From positions 1 to 64,000 of the forward strand of contig NZ_QPJT01000024.1 in the NCBI RefSeq assembly GCF_003337415.1: DNA of 64,000 nt. Direction: 5' to 3'. The stretch comes from Anaerobacterium chartisolvens. Its GTDB lineage: Bacteria > Bacillota > Clostridia > Acetivibrionales > DSM-27016. Within the stretch, counting starts at the first letter, position 1. Each line of letters starts with the position of its first letter. This document shows positions 50,201-56,200 of this stretch, piece by piece. A program made the position numbers.

Positions 50201-53200
50201 TAGATATTATTGATAACACAGATAATGTTATACCTAAAGATAATCTGTCTGCAGGTGAAAAGCAAATATACATATTATCTATGCTTTGGGCCATTCTTAA
50301 CTCTTCAAAAAGAGAGGCCCCATTAGTATTTGATACCTTACTAGGAAGATTGGATCATTGCCATAAAGAGAACATTATAACGAAATTATTACCTCAGTCT
50401 GGTAAACAGGTTATTATTCTTTCCACTAATACAGAGATTGATGTAAGCTATTATAAAAAGCTCAAACCTCATATAAGTAAGGAATACGTCATATCATATG
50501 ATAACAATATGAAGACTGTATCAATTCATAAAGGATACTTTTTTAAAGAAGGTGAAGATAATGAATTTTAGAATGCGCACATCAAAAGAAACTATGGAAA
50601 TCTTAAAAGAAATGCAAGATATTACTCATATCACGCCTAATATACTTGCAAGGCTTGCTATTGCGTTGTCTTTAAGAGATAATACCCCAATTGGCGATAA
50701 AGATAGAAATAATCACGGTCTCGAATTTCACCGACATATATTAACCGGTAATCATGATTTACTTTTCAAGTGCCTTATTTCTCAACACTGTGGCCGCTAT
50801 CTAAGTGATGAAGAATATTTTCCAACTTATATAAACAGGCATCTTGATCGTGGGGCACCTGAGTTAAAAAAAATTTACAATTATTCAAAAAATACTGAGA
50901 AATTTATGATAAATCTCTCAAAAATCAATTCAGGAGTACTTTTATGATTTATTTTGATAACAGTGCAACAACCGAAATTGATCCTGAAGTAGTTGAATCC
51001 ATGCTTCCATTTTTAAATGAAGAATACGGCAATCCGTCAAGTAAATACTATACTTTAGCAGAGACTGCAAAAAAATCTGTTGAAGAAAGCAGAACTAGTG
51101 TCGCTGAACTAATAAATTCTAGGAATGATGAAATAATTTTCACCAGTGGTGCATCAGAAAGCAATAATTTTATTCTTAAAGGAATAAGTGATTATCTGTA
51201 TTATGAAAAAAAGCTTGGAAATCATATTATTACATCAAAAACGGAGCATAAGTCAGTGCTTGAGACATGTAAGTGGCTTGAAAAGAGAGGGTATAAGATA
51301 ACATATTTAAATGTAAATAAATATGGTCAAGTGGACAAAGATGAACTTGAAGGGTCGTTGACAAAGGAAACGATCTTAGTATCATTGATTTGGGGCAATA
51401 ATGAGTTAGGTACTCTAAATGAGATATCTTCTCTTTCATCTATGTGTAAAGATAGAAGTATACTTTTTCATTCAGATGCAACACAGGTGTTAGGTAAAAT
51501 AGATATAGATGTTAAATCTATTCCTGTAGATTTTCTATCTTTTTCAGCCCACAAAATTCATGGTCCCAAAGGGATTGGTGGGTGCTTTATTAGGAAAACC
51601 AAAATTGGAACAAAGCAGAAAATAACACCTCTCATACACGGGGGAAGCCAAGAATTTGATTACCGTGCCGGTACTCATTCTGTCCATAATATTGTTGGGT
51701 TTGGAAAAGCCTGCGAAATAGCTAAGCGTGAAATGAATAAAAACACCTTAGTATTAAAAGATCTGGAAACAATTCTCATTGACCAGATAAGAGCTATATA
51801 TCCATCTTCACAAATAAACAGTCATTTGACGCATAAAATTCCTGGAGTAATAAATGTTACTTTGCCCGGAATTAACAATGAAATCTTAATTAGAAAACTC
51901 CGTAATGATGTTGCAATTTCTACAGGGTCTGCTTGTTCTTTAGGCGAACCAAGCTATGTTCTAAAAAGCATTGGACTTACTGAATCAGAAATCTATACTA
52001 CCATAAGGATATCTTTATCTAAGTTTAATACCTTGAATCAGGTTAATTCTTTTATAAATCAATTAATATCAATTCAGTGATATATTAATTTTTCTTTTTA
52101 TCTTTATGGATGCTTTGGAATATTTTCACTAGAGCATCTATATCTATTATTTCATCAAAACTTCCTCGATTAATTTTTGTCACATCAGCATTTTCGTATA
52201 TTGATACAATAAAATCATAAAAATCCGAATTATAGCTCACAAGTTTATTAACTGTTTCCCAATCTAAAATATCTTTTGTCTTAGCAGGTAAAAGTATCTC
52301 TGATAAATCCGGATCACTTGTATCTAATCTGATTATTCCTATTCCGAATGCATTTGATAATCTCTTTAGCTCAGACATAAAATCTTCATCAGTATCTATC
52401 TCAGCTGCCACAAGATACCCTTCATTAGCCCAAGATGAGTTTGAAACAGCTTGAAAGTAAGACTCCCTAATATTGAAAAAGCCCAAACTCCTTTTTACTT
52501 CATATGAAAATAATTTTACACCAAATTCTCCCATCTTTTTCGAAAGATCAACCACTTCTTTCTTCCATCTTTTTATTGGAAAATAAACACCAACCATATC
52601 AGGGTGCAACCATTGCGCATGAGACTTTTTTGACTTTTGATGCTTTACGGACTTTGGAAGAATGTCAGTACTGTCACAATAATATGCAAGCAATGGGTAC
52701 AAATCTTCTTCGCTATATTTTAGCTTCGGTTCTTCCTCCTCAACTTTTCCTTTTTCATCTTCAATAACTTTTTCTATATCTTGTTGTGAACCCAAAGAAC
52801 GCAGATAAAATTTAATTGGTCTAGATTCAATCAATATAAAATCAGTTTTACCATTATCAACAATATCATTCTTAACCTTGCGACCAAGAGTGTTCCATGC
52901 ATCTTTACCAATAAAACCATGCCTTCCGTCCAGTCCCTGTTTTTGAGCTATATCCCAAATTTCACGCGCAGTTAACGGACGTTTTGTTTCAAAAAGTATT
53001 TTTTTTGCTAAATCCTTTAGAGTAAATTTACTCATCCTCATCACTTCTCCAATTATAAAAGCCTAAAACACTGAGGAATTATGAATTAATTCTACAGTGT
53101 TTGAATGTATTATTTTTATCCGGTAAACCTAGATTCCATATAAAATGGGTAATACCTATACAGTTCCATATATATTTTCAAATCTTCTTCCCTTAATCCA

Positions 53201-56200
53201 AATAAATTAATGTCAGACCAATTCTCACATGGTAATTGTGTATTAATCTTTTGCAGCTCTTTATATGTAAGGTTAGGTAGGTAAATATCATACGGGTGAG
53301 CTATGTTATTATTGAAAAAGAAATCGTAAAAATTGGTATTGTTAAATATTTCTTCGTCCCTTTTTCCAATGAAAACACCTCCTATAGTTACCATAGGAGA
53401 GCCATCTTTATATGTAAAATACACTAATTGTTTAAAAATCATTTTCTCATTATCATCAGAAATACTAGCATTTTTTTCTATTAAAGCTTCTTGTATTTTA
53501 TTATTTATCATCTCATTAACCAGTTGATGAAATAGCTTGTTTACAATTTGATTTTTTTTAGTCCCCATAGGTACGTCATCTTCAAATTCCTTTTTAAACA
53601 CTTCAAATCTATCATCGGTCTGATCATCAGGGCTATAATTTCCATTACAGGTAACAAGCAAAACACTATGAGGTAATAAATTAAGAACAATATTTTTTAT
53701 ATCATGTAAATTCGATCGAGAAAATATCTCATCATAATCTAACCAAACGATTGACTTTGTATTCCAATTAATATCATTAATTGCATTAGATGAACTTTTA
53801 AAAACCATATTTATACACTTAAATGGTTTGTTAAATTCAAATCTATTTTGTTCTTGTTCACTTGACGCATTTCCTTCAATGCTGTACATCTTACTGATTC
53901 CTAATTCCTTATGAAACAGAGTAAAATCTACAAAGTATTTTGACCCCATTCCAATATATTGATAATCCCTAAGTGGAGAAAACACTTCTAACTTTCTAAA
54001 AATATCGCAAAAAAATTTTCTTTCAATACTTTTAGCAGGCCTTAGGTAATAATTAATGTTTTGTCTTTCTTGTTTACCCATTAATCTATTTCCTCCATGT
54101 CACAATAGTAATCAAAAGTAAATCTTCCTACATCAGCATTTGACGATAATTTCGCTGACTTTTTTACCTTATCCACCATTTCTCTTTCTTTATAGTAAGT
54201 TATTGTAACAAGGTTACTGATTTTTCTCTGAAGTACTTCACTTATCACAAATTTCTCAGTTAAATCAGATGTTTTTATGTCCTTGATATCTACTTTTTTT
54301 GTATTTTCTAGTAATACCTTATTTACATCATCGGTTATTTCTTCAGTTTCATCTTCGCTAACTTGTTCTTCCTTTAATGTTGCAAACTTCCTAATTGATT
54401 CAAAAACAATCTGCATCAACTTTTTCATAATAGTTTTTGCAGAAATAAACACTTTTGATTCAGGATCAACTCCAGTTTTAGTGGTATTCCAAGGTAATTT
54501 GTCTGGATTACTTGATTCAAAATAAACAAATCCTCTAAAACGCGCATAAGTAGAATGAGAAATTGGTATCCCATCTTCGCCCCACCCGGATAAACTAGTC
54601 TGATCTGAAAATACAACCAGACGATTATTGCAATATAAGTACCATCCTGCATGTTTAGGAAAACCAGTATCGCCTATTCCCGCATAAACCTTTATTACAA
54701 CATCATCTACTATTAGCTCTTTATAAGCAGGTTTAAAATTTTCATCGAAGTAAAGTCCATCAAAATAATATTGGAGCATTGTTCTGTTAATGCTAATGAA
54801 CATCTTTTTCTCAATAGCTTTTGAATTGTATACCTCAATATGCTTTTGCAGCTCAGTAATGAAATTAACTGAATTTAACTTATCCTTAACCTCTGTATTT
54901 AAGTCGGTAATATAAATAGTTGTTCCTACTTCTGCATTATCGCAATTCGTTTTCAAATCTGAGAACTCGAAATTCCACTTATCAGGCTCCTGAACCCATT
55001 TATCTACATCAATATTAATTTCAAAGAATGTAGTCTTTGTTGATGATTTTATATTAATTTTTCTCCCCAAGCGGAATAGAGATCGTTTCATACCAATACC
55101 AAATCTGCCAATAGAAAAGCTATTTTCCTGAATATAATCTTTGTAATCAGAAGGCCGTCCGAACCTAAAAGCTACTTTCTCAGCTACCTTAGGATCCATC
55201 CCTCCACAATTATCCTTAATAATAAACTCATCTTCTTTGATTTCTAATTCTATTTTATATCCATCAAAATTATCATCAACAACAAATCTTCTAGCAGCAT
55301 CAATACTATTGTCTACCAGCTCTATTATTGCCTCTTTTAGCCCAATATCACGAGTTATCATATAAATAAAAAATTCTTTAGTAGGCGTAGCTAATATTTC
55401 TGTTGACATCCATTTACCTCCCTTAATAGTTCTGTGTTTACACAAATTCCTGCGTTAACTCCCAAAATGCTTTATCTTTCATATGTATTGGATTAATTCC
55501 GCCGCCAAGCTTCACAATACTATAATGTTTTTCTAAATTCTTAATTTTATTAAAAATATTCTCCTCTTCAGTTTTTGACTGAGTATTGAAAATATATCTA
55601 ACATCTTTGTTGCTTATATCGGTTACATTATGAACAACCCAAGTAAGTATATAATTTGCATATTCATTATCTGTAGTTGAAAAATGGCTTAAAAGTTGTG
55701 TAGATAGAATAGATCCTACACCAAACTCTCTTCCCTCTTTAAGGATTTTTTTGAGAGACTGAAAATCCTCGCTCAAAAAGTTATCAGCTTCATCAACTAG
55801 TATCATTTTTGTAATTTCTCTGTAATTACCTTTTATTGCACTGTGTCCACCCATTTGCATTTGTGAGTAAAAAACATCTAAGGTAATTGCAACTACAAGG
55901 TTTTGTATGCTTTTATCATATCCGGAAAGGTTAATAACTGTTACCCCGTCAATTACATCAAATAGAGTTTTTGTCTTACTATGATCCGGCTCAAAAATTT
56001 CAAATTCATATAATGCATTTAGTGCAGAATATAAGCTGTCTGTTTTGATATTTTCTTTTTCCGAATAAATCCGGTACACATCATGTAATGTCGGTGCCGA
56101 AGCCCCCCAAGTACTTGAATCTGCCTTCCTTATACCTCTTGTTTCATAAGCCTCCATAATTACGTCCTTTAATGTTGCCTGCTGTATAGGTCCAAGGTGA

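What the first reader, a model, noticed from the sequence alone, without database searches (positions are those of the whole stretch)
52085..55445. Unrecognised three-gene module (GHKL ATPase, 321-aa unknown, HARE-HTH/PD-(D/E)xK-like protein) inside the dnd island and coupled to dndH
The module sits between dndBCDEA and dndFGH. It holds a 454-aa GHKL/Bergerat-fold ATPase with intact N, G1 and G2 boxes, a 321-aa protein with no recognisable motif, and a 319-aa protein with a HARE-HTH-like N-terminus and a PD...ExK nuclease-like C-terminus. The GHKL gene start overlaps the dndH stop by 8 nt. The 321-aa gene overlaps the GHKL stop. Both therefore look co-transcribed with the restriction genes dndFGH rather than being a random insertion. 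GHKL/MORC-like ATPases paired with HARE-HTH nucleases have been predicted computationally as restriction-like modules. I know of no description of such a module as part of the Dnd/Dpt machinery. It could be a new effector or sensor layer of phosphorothioate-dependent defence, or an independent defence system sharing the island.
Basis: partly seen in the sequence, partly recalled or inferred. Interest (0 to 1): 0.8.

Follow-up and report, generated by a model that had tools for sequence, protein, structure and literature searches.

The report
MORC-like ATPase and methyltransferase-fold pair
The flagged "three-gene module" is a widespread, apparently undescribed two-gene unit (a MORC-like ATPase plus a methyltransferase-fold protein) that sits beside DNA-modification genes in many phyla, followed here by an unrelated, already-known type of HARE-HTH nuclease gene.

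Summary
The three ORFs are real and lie between dndBCDEA and dndFGH. The trio is not one unit.

**The conserved core is a pair.** A MORC-like GHKL+S5 ATPase (54081-55409) is translationally coupled to a PF20553 protein with a SAM-methyltransferase fold (53116-54081). It matches Pfam at E = 5e-106.

- The ATPase gene abuts the PF20553 gene in 79/80 genome loci, 54/54 metagenome loci and 5/5 viral contigs.
- In 71/80 genome loci and 16/17 well-flanked metagenome loci the pair lies next to a DNA-modification module: Dnd phosphorothioation, a C5-cytosine methylase (with or without Vsr), or a PAPS-reductase-like gene. One distant copy sits inside a DISARM operon.
- dndFGH is nearby in only about 5 of 80 loci, so the link is to modification genes, not specifically to dndH.
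- The reported 8-nt overlap with dndH comes from the longest-ORF rule. The annotated ATG lies 28 nt after the dndH stop.

**The 319-aa gene is separate.** It is a COG2958 HARE-HTH + PD-(D/E)xK nuclease. It has no homologue in any of the 160 sampled pair loci.

**Reading.** My best inference is that the pair is a portable, restriction-like partner of modification modules. The mechanism is unknown. I found no description of it in PADLOC or in the searchable literature.

The parts
54081..55409 (-). MORC-like GHKL + S5-fold ATPase, 442 aa (the mechanical ORF extends to a TTG at 55445). First gene of the conserved pair.
53116..54081 (-). PF20553 (Methyltransf_35) protein with a class I SAM-methyltransferase fold, 321 aa. 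Second gene of the conserved pair. Its ATG overlaps the GHKL stop (TAATG).
52085..53035 (-). COG2958-family HARE-HTH + PD-(D/E)xK nuclease, 316 aa from the annotated ATG (mechanical ORF from GTG 53044). A separate, variable island gene, convergent with dndA across a 4-nt gap.
   Evidence: Pfam HARE-HTH, aa 7-72, E = 5.7e-9. 5541 homologues; NCBI name 'COG2958 family protein'. Invariant E109, H144-P145-D146, E179-x-K181, Q195. COG2958/DUF511 is listed as a PD-(D/E)xK family in PMC3424549. No homologue in 160 pair loci.
53036..53115 (-). Intergenic spacer between the PF20553 gene and the HARE-HTH nuclease gene.
   Evidence: Sequence. One promoter-like site (TTCAAA-16-CATAAT, 53105-53078), but the scan as a whole is at chance level.
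55410..55437 (-). 28-nt spacer between the dndH stop (TAA, 55440-55438) and the GHKL ATG. It carries the ribosome-binding site.
55438..63759 (-). dndH (55438-60621), dndG (60581-61993) and dndF (61990-63759): the DndFGH/DptFGH restriction module, upstream of the pair on the same strand.
   Evidence: PADLOC DndH 2211 bits, DndG E = 4e-140, DndF E = 2e-181. NCBIfam DptH/G/F equivalogs.
46042..52080 (+). dndB, dndC, dndD, dndE, dndA: the phosphorothioate modification module, convergent with the trio.
   Evidence: NCBIfam: DndB E = 5e-142, DndC 2e-167, DndD 1e-132, DndE 2e-19, DndA 1e-127.

Best explanation
**Shown**
- Genes 54081-55409 and 53116-54081 form a conserved, translationally coupled two-gene unit: a MORC-like GHKL+S5 ATPase followed by a PF20553 protein with an intact-looking SAM-methyltransferase core.
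- The unit is horizontally mobile across more than 12 bacterial phyla and one archaeon.
- It is almost always placed directly beside, or inside the operon of, a DNA-modification module. The module is DndBCDE(A) phosphorothioation, a C5-cytosine methylase with or without Vsr or a HhH-GPD glycosylase, or a PAPS-reductase-like gene. One distant copy sits in a DISARM operon next to its methylase.
- The 319-aa gene is an independent COG2958 HARE-HTH + PD-(D/E)xK nuclease of the kind already noted next to dnd genes.

**Inferred**
- The pair occupies the slot that a restriction component holds in an R-M cassette.
- I propose that it is a portable restriction-like or effector partner held in check by the neighbouring modification.
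- In this model the ATPase dimer acts as an ATP-driven clamp on DNA, as MORC and MutL do.
- The methyltransferase-fold subunit would read target sites that lack the self mark, or chemically mark them.
- In this window the pair would be a second effector layer. It would share the Dnd phosphorothioate mark with DndFGH and would probably be co-transcribed with dndFGH.
- The HARE-HTH nuclease would be a separate type-IV-like or back-up nuclease.
- The substrate of the methyltransferase-fold protein and the way invaders are harmed are unknown.
For: **Pair conservation**
- The GHKL gene lies immediately upstream of the PF20553 gene in 79/80 genome loci, 54/54 metagenome loci with enough upstream DNA, 5/5 viral contigs or phages and 4/4 annotated records.
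- The stop-to-start distance is -11 to +12 nt in 77/78 loci.
- Pairwise-distance correlation between the two proteins is r = 0.78 over 73 loci.

**Link to modification genes**
- Genome loci: 34 with Dcm, 32 with Dnd, 5 with a PAPS-reductase-like gene, 9 with none. Four of the nine are contigs too short to judge.
- Metagenome loci with good flanks: 9 Dnd, 7 Dcm, 1 none.
- Dnd-, Dcm- and PAPS-linked pairs interleave in a UPGMA tree, which indicates repeated partner switching.

**Self-contained cassettes**
- Minimal three-gene cassettes of GHKL, PF20553 and Dcm occur in the accessory (moron) region of P. aeruginosa Pf prophage PfAC20 and on 4 IMG/VR contigs.
- In Priestia megaterium and Billgrantia the pair lies beside dndBCDE(A) with no DndFGH.
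- Operons of the form dndC-dndD-dndE::herA-GHKL-PF20553 occur in 7 loci.
- One distant pair sits inside a DISARM operon.

**Catalytic residues and fold**
- Catalytic-type residues are conserved in both proteins.
- The ATPase has a MORC-like fold.

**Window layout**
- The window's arrangement, dndFGH then the pair, convergent with dndAEDCB, recurs in L002, L003, L007 and L028. L028 is a gammaproteobacterium.
Against: - No nuclease or helicase family is conserved with the pair at BLAST 1e-8, so a killing activity is not evident.
- The methyltransferase-fold protein keeps its SAM-site motifs. That fits a modifying enzyme at least as well as a reader.
- Its nearest solved folds are RNA and small-molecule methyltransferases, not DNA methyltransferases.
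- In DndFGH and DISARM loci a restriction module is already present, so the pair could be an accessory or a regulator.
- Five well-flanked genome loci show no recognised modification gene within 10 kb.
- All the evidence is comparative. Nothing has been tested experimentally.
Confidence: 0.45

Rival explanations
1. The pair is an extra modification module. The PF20553 protein is an active methyltransferase that adds a second self mark to host DNA, or methylates something else. The MORC-like ATPase loads or targets it. The pair supplements Dnd, Dcm or DISARM modification rather than restricting.
For: Invariant GxG, acidic beta-2 residue and D-Y motif IV-like residues. Class I methyltransferase fold. 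The pair sits next to other modification enzymes, including inside DISARM beside DrmMI.
Against: Dcm-linked cassettes would then hold two methyltransferases and an ATPase with no effector, yet they are conserved as mobile three-gene units on prophages. There is no (D/N)PP(Y/F) motif, and no DNA methyltransferase appears among the top structural matches.
Confidence: 0.2
2. The pair is an autonomous defence system that merely shares defence islands with modification systems, with no functional link to Dnd.
For: Five well-flanked loci lack recognised modification genes (L023, L030, L033, L038, L077). Islands around the pair also hold KAP NTPases, TIR, SIR2, PIN and NERD-UvrD genes.
Against: The neighbour is specifically a modification gene in 71/80 and 16/17 loci, usually abutting and on the same strand. 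The pair is embedded within operons: between drmMI and drmA, after dndE::herA, and after dndH. No other defence family recurs beside it.
Confidence: 0.15
3. The PF20553 protein marks invading DNA and the HARE-HTH nuclease, a reader of modified DNA, cuts what is marked, powered by the GHKL ATPase.
For: HARE-type wHTH fused effectors lie directly beside the pair in several Dnd-linked loci. HARE/Mrr_N + Mrr_cat lies downstream in L023, L079, L080, L108 and L138. HARE-like + SIR2_2 lies upstream in L011, L013 and L070.
Against: The window's COG2958 protein has no homologue in 160 pair loci. Its nearest relative (61% identity) sits beside dndA in a locus without the pair. Another relative sits beside an unrelated type IIG system. 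No HARE gene is seen in Dcm-linked cassettes. The gene is separated from the pair by 71-80 nt.
Confidence: 0.1
4. The pair has a repair or regulatory role. It might act as a MutL-like helper of Vsr or glycosylase repair of 5mC damage, or as a regulator of modification level.
For: E. coli MutL is known to stimulate Vsr (discussed in PMC2292703). Vsr is present in 15 Dcm-linked loci and a HhH-GPD glycosylase in 4.
Against: Vsr or the glycosylase is absent from more than half of the Dcm-linked loci and from all Dnd-linked ones. Both are ordinary accessories of C5-methylase R-M systems. This role does not explain the methyltransferase-fold partner.
Confidence: 0.1

Closest known systems
MORC / paraMORC GHKL+S5 ATPases of prokaryotic R-M operons (Iyer, Abhiman & Aravind 2008, PMC2292703)
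   Same: GHKL N, G1 and G2 boxes plus an S5-fold domain with a conserved lysine. The best structural matches are MORC3, MORC2 and SMCHD1. Genomic association with C5-cytosine methylases and Vsr matches what that paper describes for paraMORCs.
   Different: Those families were described with SF2 helicases and RE-fold, HNH, TIR or fused nucleases. This one has a constant methyltransferase-fold partner and no conserved nuclease or helicase. The paraMORC2 ExxxH motif is not present (H285 is invariant but has no Glu four residues before it). The paper's text does not mention a Dnd or DISARM link. Its supplementary tables could not be read.
Restriction partners of phosphorothioate modification: DndFGH/DptFGH, PbeABCD, SspE/SspFGH
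   Same: Encoded directly beside dndBCDE(A), often as the only candidate partner. Variable presence, like the known partners.
   Different: No sequence relationship (PADLOC). Not specific to phosphorothioation, since it is equally attached to 5mC methylases. No nuclease domain recognised. No experimental evidence.
HARE-HTH + REase proteins next to dnd modification genes (Rakesh, Aravind & Krishnan 2024, PMC10853773); COG2958/DUF511 PD-(D/E)xK family (PMC3424549)
   Same: The 319-aa protein has this architecture and this position beside dndA.
   Different: None of substance. Here the gene is convergent with dndA rather than downstream on the same strand. It is a member of a known kind.
BREX and DISARM (methyltransferase-centred defence without a classical restriction endonuclease)
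   Same: Self/non-self discrimination by modification, multi-gene composition, an ATPase, and no obvious stand-alone REase. One distant pair is embedded in a DISARM class 1 operon.
   Different: No shared protein families apart from the generic methyltransferase fold. The pair has only two genes and borrows its modification enzyme from different systems.
MzaB of the MzaABCDE system
   Same: Weak hit of the GHKL N-terminal region (PADLOC E = 1.3e-6; NCBIfam 28.8 bits).
   Different: The score is far below the NCBIfam cut-off of 850 bits and covers only aa 34-159. No other Mza genes are present.

Membership tests
GHKL (Bergerat-fold) ATPases | N box (ExxxNxxD), G1 box (DxGxG) and G2 box (GxxGxG) for ATP and Mg2+ binding | tested here: met
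   Pfam HATPase_c_3, E = 7e-15. E30-x3-N34-x2-D37, D66-N-C-G-G70 and G101-x-F-G104-x-G106 are invariant or nearly so in 34 and 74 homologues.
MORC / paraMORC (GHKL + S5 module) | S5-fold transducer domain after the GHKL domain, with a conserved lysine reaching the ATP site | tested here: met
MORC proper (Iyer et al. 2008) | MORC-specific GhXhhpXXRhl motif in the S5 domain | not tested
   The motif is quoted. I did not align it against eukaryotic MORCs.
paraMORC2 (Iyer et al. 2008) | [quoted passage not shown] | tested here: not met
   The invariant His (H285) is preceded by G-x-P-x-x, not by Glu at position -4. The taxonomic spread does overlap. The family lists in the paper's supplement were not available.
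MutL (housekeeping mismatch repair) | MutL N-terminal family match plus a C-terminal dimerisation/endonuclease domain | tested here: not met
Pfam PF20553 Methyltransf_35 | Full-length match above the gathering score | tested here: met
   355 bits against a cut-off of 27, covering aa 6-318 of 321.
Class I SAM-dependent methyltransferases | Rossmann-like seven-strand fold; GxG motif I after beta-1; acidic residue at the end of beta-2 | tested here: met
DNA amino-methyltransferases (N6A/N4C) | (D/N/S)PP(Y/F/W) motif IV after beta-4 | tested here: not met
COG2958 / DUF511 HARE-HTH nucleases | N-terminal HARE-HTH winged helix plus a C-terminal PD-(D/E)xK core (E ... PD ... ExK) | tested here: met
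   Pfam HARE-HTH above its cut-off. E109, P145-D146 and E179-x-K181 are invariant. Homologues are named 'COG2958 family protein'. The family is listed as PD-(D/E)xK in PMC3424549.
Dnd/Dpt system (as a constant component of DndFGH) | Regular co-occurrence with dndF, dndG and dndH | tested here: not met
   dndF/G/H accompany the pair in 4 of 80 genome loci, plus one locus with dndH at its edge, and in 0 of 80 metagenome loci.
Known or candidate defence systems in PADLOC-DB v2.0.0 | Match to a system model | tested here: not met
   No hit for the 321-aa or 319-aa protein. The GHKL protein gives only a weak partial MzaB hit.

The most novel reading that the evidence does not exclude
The pair may be a universal plug-in restriction module that works without a nuclease. 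A MORC-type ATP-driven clamp would capture DNA lacking the local self mark (phosphorothioate, 5mC or a DISARM mark). Its SAM-dependent partner would then chemically modify that DNA, by a damaging or flagging methylation, or would lock it. This would silence or doom the invader. It would also give a partner to many 'orphan' dnd clusters that lack DndFGH, Pbe or SspE.
Probability: 0.15. Interest if true: 0.85.

Novelty: new variant of a known kind. Interest (0 to 1): 0.62.

Why it matters
Many dnd phosphorothioation clusters have no known restriction partner. How such clusters, and lone C5-methylase cassettes on prophages, act in defence is unresolved.

A compact two-gene unit recurs beside Dnd, Dcm, PAPS-reductase-like and DISARM modification genes across phyla. 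It is missed by PADLOC and by the annotators of a Pf prophage, who scored the cassette as an 'incomplete' R-M system.

That makes it a concrete, cloneable candidate for a new class of modification-linked effector. It would also be a bacterial context in which a MORC-type ATPase works with a methyltransferase-fold protein, a pairing that recalls eukaryotic MORC-dependent silencing.

Tried and rejected
- **Housekeeping MutL fragment.** Rejected.
- **Membership of a known defence system.** PADLOC gives nothing for the 321-aa and 319-aa proteins and only a weak MzaB hit for the GHKL.
- **paraMORC2 assignment through the ExxxH motif.** Motif not found.
- **C-terminal ~40 aa of the ATPase as a ribbon-helix-helix DNA-binding domain.** The predicted beta-alpha-alpha topology fits, but neither a PDB profile search nor Pfam gives any support. 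Left as a guess.
- **Promoter and terminator scans to settle co-transcription.** Counts equal the shuffled expectation, so they are uninformative.
- **Sequence search of PF20553 and the GHKL against PDB.** No hit for PF20553. Only marginal MORC4, topoisomerase and SMCHD1 hits for the GHKL.
- **Literature searches.** PF20553/Methyltransf_35, GHKL + phosphorothioate + dnd, and DndFGH with MORC/HATPase terms found no relevant paper. One search was swamped by phage-defence papers. The HARE-HTH paper PMC3272235 is not held.
- **First alignment for the genome scan.** It was too diverse to derive patterns.

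
Full report
**1. What is in the window**

The window comes from Anaerobacterium chartisolvens: the 321-aa protein is 100% identical to DFR58_12456.

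- On the plus strand lie dndB (46042-47157), dndC (47163-48545), dndD (48532-50571), dndE (50552-50947) and dndA (50944-52080). All match NCBIfam equivalogs.
- On the minus strand lie dndF (61990-63759), dndG (60581-61993) and dndH (55438-60621), confirmed by PADLOC and NCBIfam.
- Three further minus-strand ORFs follow, at 54081-55445, 53116-54081 and 52085-53044.
- The whole stretch from 45.5 to 64 kb has 26-35% G+C, against 39-43% upstream. The three ORFs do not differ in composition from the dnd genes.

**2. Checking the observation**

The GHKL call is right. Pfam gives HATPase_c_3 at E = 7e-15, and the N, G1 and G2 boxes are invariant in homologues.

The HARE-HTH / PD-(D/E)xK call for the 319-aa protein is right. 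Pfam gives HARE-HTH at E = 6e-9. E109, P145-D146 and E179-x-K181 (numbering of the 316-aa annotated protein) are invariant in 25 homologues.

Two statements are wrong.

- The 321-aa protein is not motif-less. It matches Pfam PF20553 (Methyltransf_35, 'putative O-methyltransferase') end to end at E = 5e-106.
- The 8-nt overlap of the GHKL gene with dndH is a product of the longest-ORF rule. The sequence reads ...TTTGTG TAA ACACAGAACTATT AAGGGAGG TAAATGG ATG..., and the NCBI protein has 442 aa. The real start is therefore ATG 55409, 28 nt after the dndH stop, with its own ribosome-binding site.

Other junctions:

- The GHKL stop and the PF20553 start do overlap, as TAATG.
- The 319-aa gene follows after 71-80 nt.
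- It ends 4 nt from the convergent dndA stop.
- Promoter and terminator scans gave counts equal to shuffled sequence. They do not settle the transcription units.

**3. The conserved unit is a pair, not a trio**

I fetched 80 genome loci around PF20553 homologues and searched them with all eleven window proteins.

- A GHKL homologue lies immediately upstream on the same strand in 79 of 80 loci. The exception is a 1.1-kb contig.
- The stop-to-start distance is -11 to +12 nt in 77 of 78 loci.
- The pairwise distances of the two proteins correlate at r = 0.78 over 73 loci.
- The 319-aa protein has no homologue in any locus.

An independent set of 80 metagenome loci repeats this.

- The GHKL gene is upstream in 54 of 54 loci that have enough upstream DNA.
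- The window's 319-aa protein has no homologue there either.

The same pair, labelled with independent Pfam annotation as HATPase_c_3 + Methyltransf_35, is seen in Priestia megaterium, Rhodanobacter glycinis and Billgrantia antri.

**4. What the pair travels with**

All-against-all clustering of neighbouring ORFs gave the following partners for the 80 genome loci:

| Partner within 10 kb | Loci |
|---|---|
| C5-cytosine methylase abutting the pair | 34 |
| dndC/dndD (10 of these also have an HKD-helicase of the PbeA type) | 32 |
| PAPS-reductase-like gene directly upstream (Pfam) | 5 |
| None of these (4 are contigs too short to judge) | 9 |

- Of the 34 C5-methylase loci, 15 also have Vsr and 4 have a HhH-GPD glycosylase.
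- Among the 17 metagenome loci with good flanks, 9 have Dnd, 7 have Dcm and 1 has neither.
- dndF/G/H accompany the pair in only four loci: L002, L003, L007 and L028. One further locus has dndH at its edge. The four share the window's layout, dndFGH then the pair, convergent with dndAEDCB. L028 is a Cellvibrio.
- In a UPGMA tree of the concatenated pair, Dnd-, Dcm- and PAPS-linked copies interleave. The window groups with L002 and L003. The pair has therefore switched modification partners repeatedly.

Further contexts:

- A distant pair sits inside a DISARM class 1 operon on a Microvirga plasmid, in the order drmD, drmMI, the pair, drmA, DUF1998, drmC.
- A three-gene cassette of GHKL, PF20553 and a C5 methylase fills the accessory slot of P. 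aeruginosa Pf prophage PfAC20. The paper describing that phage scored it as an 'incomplete' R-M system.
- All four IMG/VR contigs with a PF20553 gene carry the same cassette.
- In seven loci the operon reads dndC, dndD, a dndE::HerA/FtsK fusion, GHKL, PF20553.
- In P. megaterium and Billgrantia the pair is the only candidate partner of dndBCDE(A) in the island.

**5. The proteins**

The ATPase:

- The profile's best PDB sequence hit is MORC4.
- An S5-domain lysine, K311, is invariant.
- The last ~40 residues are conserved and predicted as beta-alpha-alpha. I could not confirm a ribbon-helix-helix assignment.
- The family is large, with 3767 hits at E <= 1e-10.

The PF20553 protein:

- It models with pLDDT 87.6 and pTM 0.87 as a class I SAM-dependent methyltransferase.
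- Foldseek finds only generic methyltransferases at TM about 0.3.
- No PDB sequence is related.
- G44-x-G46, E69 and W113-L-D115-Y116 are invariant in 27 diverse members. This suggests that it binds SAM and is catalytically competent.
- Motif IV is not the (D/N)PP(Y/F) of DNA amino-methyltransferases. The substrate cannot be inferred.
- The family has about 2,345 representatives at 50% identity. Nearly all are stand-alone proteins of 300-350 aa.

**6. The 319-aa gene**

- Its family is very large (5541 hits) and is named 'COG2958 family protein'.
- It is listed as the DUF511/COG2958 PD-(D/E)xK family of unknown function in PMC3424549.
- Its closest relative (61% identity) lies convergent to dndA in a dndBCDEA locus that also has a Pbe-like module and GmrSD, but not the pair.
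- A Thermosipho relative lies next to a PLD-SNF2 helicase and a type IIG enzyme.
- Rakesh, Aravind and Krishnan (PMC10853773) already reported REase domains fused to HARE-HTH immediately downstream of dnd modification genes. They proposed that these discriminate modified DNA.
- This gene is therefore a member of a known kind and is not tied to the pair.

Other effectors fused to HARE-type winged helices do occur next to the pair in some Dnd-linked loci:

- Mrr_N + Mrr_cat lies downstream in L023, L079, L080, L108 and L138.
- A HARE-like domain fused to SIR2_2 lies upstream in L011, L013 and L070.

I read this as the general habit of dnd islands rather than as a third subunit. I keep the 'mark-and-cut' idea as a low-probability rival.

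**7. How it most likely works**

*Shown:* a tightly coupled ATPase and methyltransferase-fold pair that is mobile and almost always attached to a DNA-modification module of changing chemistry.

*Inferred:*

- In minimal cassettes (methylase + pair, with or without Vsr) the pair occupies the place of the restriction component.
- Its need for a co-inherited modification gene is what one expects of an activity that is harmful to unmarked DNA.
- By analogy with MORC, MutL and topoisomerase ATPase modules, the ATPase probably dimerises on ATP binding and clamps or loops DNA.
- The methyltransferase-fold subunit is the obvious candidate for reading or chemically marking target sites.
- In this window the pair would use the Dnd phosphorothioate mark alongside DndFGH and would probably be read through from dndH (28-nt spacer).

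I put 0.45 on this restriction-like reading. The weak points are these:

- No nuclease is evident.
- The methyltransferase looks active, which also fits a 'second mark' role (rival 1, 0.2).
- In DndFGH and DISARM loci a restriction module already exists.
- Nothing has been tested experimentally.

**8. Comparison with what is known, and novelty**

- GHKL 'paraMORC' ATPases in R-M operons with C5 methylases and Vsr were described in 2008 (PMC2292703). There they were described with helicases and nucleases. The text has no methyltransferase-fold partner and no Dnd link.
- The paraMORC2 signature is not met.
- The 2024 reappraisal of Dnd systems contains none of the words GHKL, MORC, Hsp90, MutL or gyrase.
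- No paper in the library holds PF20553/Methyltransf_35.
- None combines GHKL with phosphorothioate and dnd, or DndFGH with MORC, HATPase or GHKL.
- PADLOC-DB v2 has no model for the PF20553 protein.

I therefore rate the pair as a new variant of a known kind, namely MORC-type ATPase modules of modification-based defence. Supplementary tables and subscription papers could not be searched.

The finding as written is only partly right. A three-gene module coupled to dndH is not what the data show. The underlying object, the pair, is real, widespread and worth experiments.

Noticed in passing
L016:7080-8624, L079:7121-8683, L051:5542-7128 (also L018, L020, L022, L080): DndE is fused to a HerA/FtsK-type ATPase (about 515-530 aa; Pfam DndE + HerA_C/FtsK_SpoIIIE/AAA_10). 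The fusion lies between dndD and the GHKL gene, giving the operon dndC-dndD-dndE::herA-GHKL-PF20553.
   Followed up: partly
L083 (Microvirga terrae plasmid pR24_2, NZ_CP102847.1 87358-104320): A distant GHKL + PF20553 pair is embedded in a DISARM class 1 operon between the MmeI-like methylase and drmA.
   Followed up: partly
L088 (Pseudomonas phage PfAC20, PP058144.1 280-3711); L084-L087 (IMG/VR contigs): The Pf prophage accessory slot carries GHKL + PF20553 + a C5-cytosine methylase. The describing paper scored it as an incomplete R-M system. All four IMG/VR contigs with PF20553 carry the same cassette, one of them with Vsr.
   Followed up: yes
L011:1449-2720, L013:3952-5223, L070:7347-8636: A protein with a HARE-like N-terminus fused to a SIR2_2 domain lies directly upstream of the GHKL gene in three Paenibacillus/Anaerobacillus dnd loci.
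   Followed up: partly
L001:8792-10001 (Desulfosporosinus sp. SRJS8): In the locus with the closest PF20553 homologue (68% identity), the GHKL gene is reduced to a 115-aa ORF fragment while the PF20553 gene is intact. This is probably a pseudogene.
   Followed up: no
L003:6795-8636; L011:5298-8832: Variable inserts occur inside otherwise syntenic islands. A 613-aa KAP-type P-loop NTPase lies between dndH and the GHKL gene. A transposase plus a TIR/TPR protein lie between the PF20553 gene and dndA.
   Followed up: no
window 45500-64000: The whole dnd island, including the three ORFs, has 26-35% G+C against 39-43% upstream. This is consistent with horizontal acquisition. No tRNA gene is present in the window.
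   Followed up: partly
window 54081-54206 (C-terminal ~40 aa of the ATPase): A conserved C-terminal segment is predicted as strand-helix-helix, with invariant G428 and near-invariant F432 and Y434. It resembles a ribbon-helix-helix, but no Pfam or PDB sequence match supports that.
   Followed up: yes
window 43550-45823 (minus strand): Two ORFs of 421 and 330 aa just upstream of dndB have no NCBIfam match at E <= 1e-5. Their function and their relation to the island are unknown.
   Followed up: no
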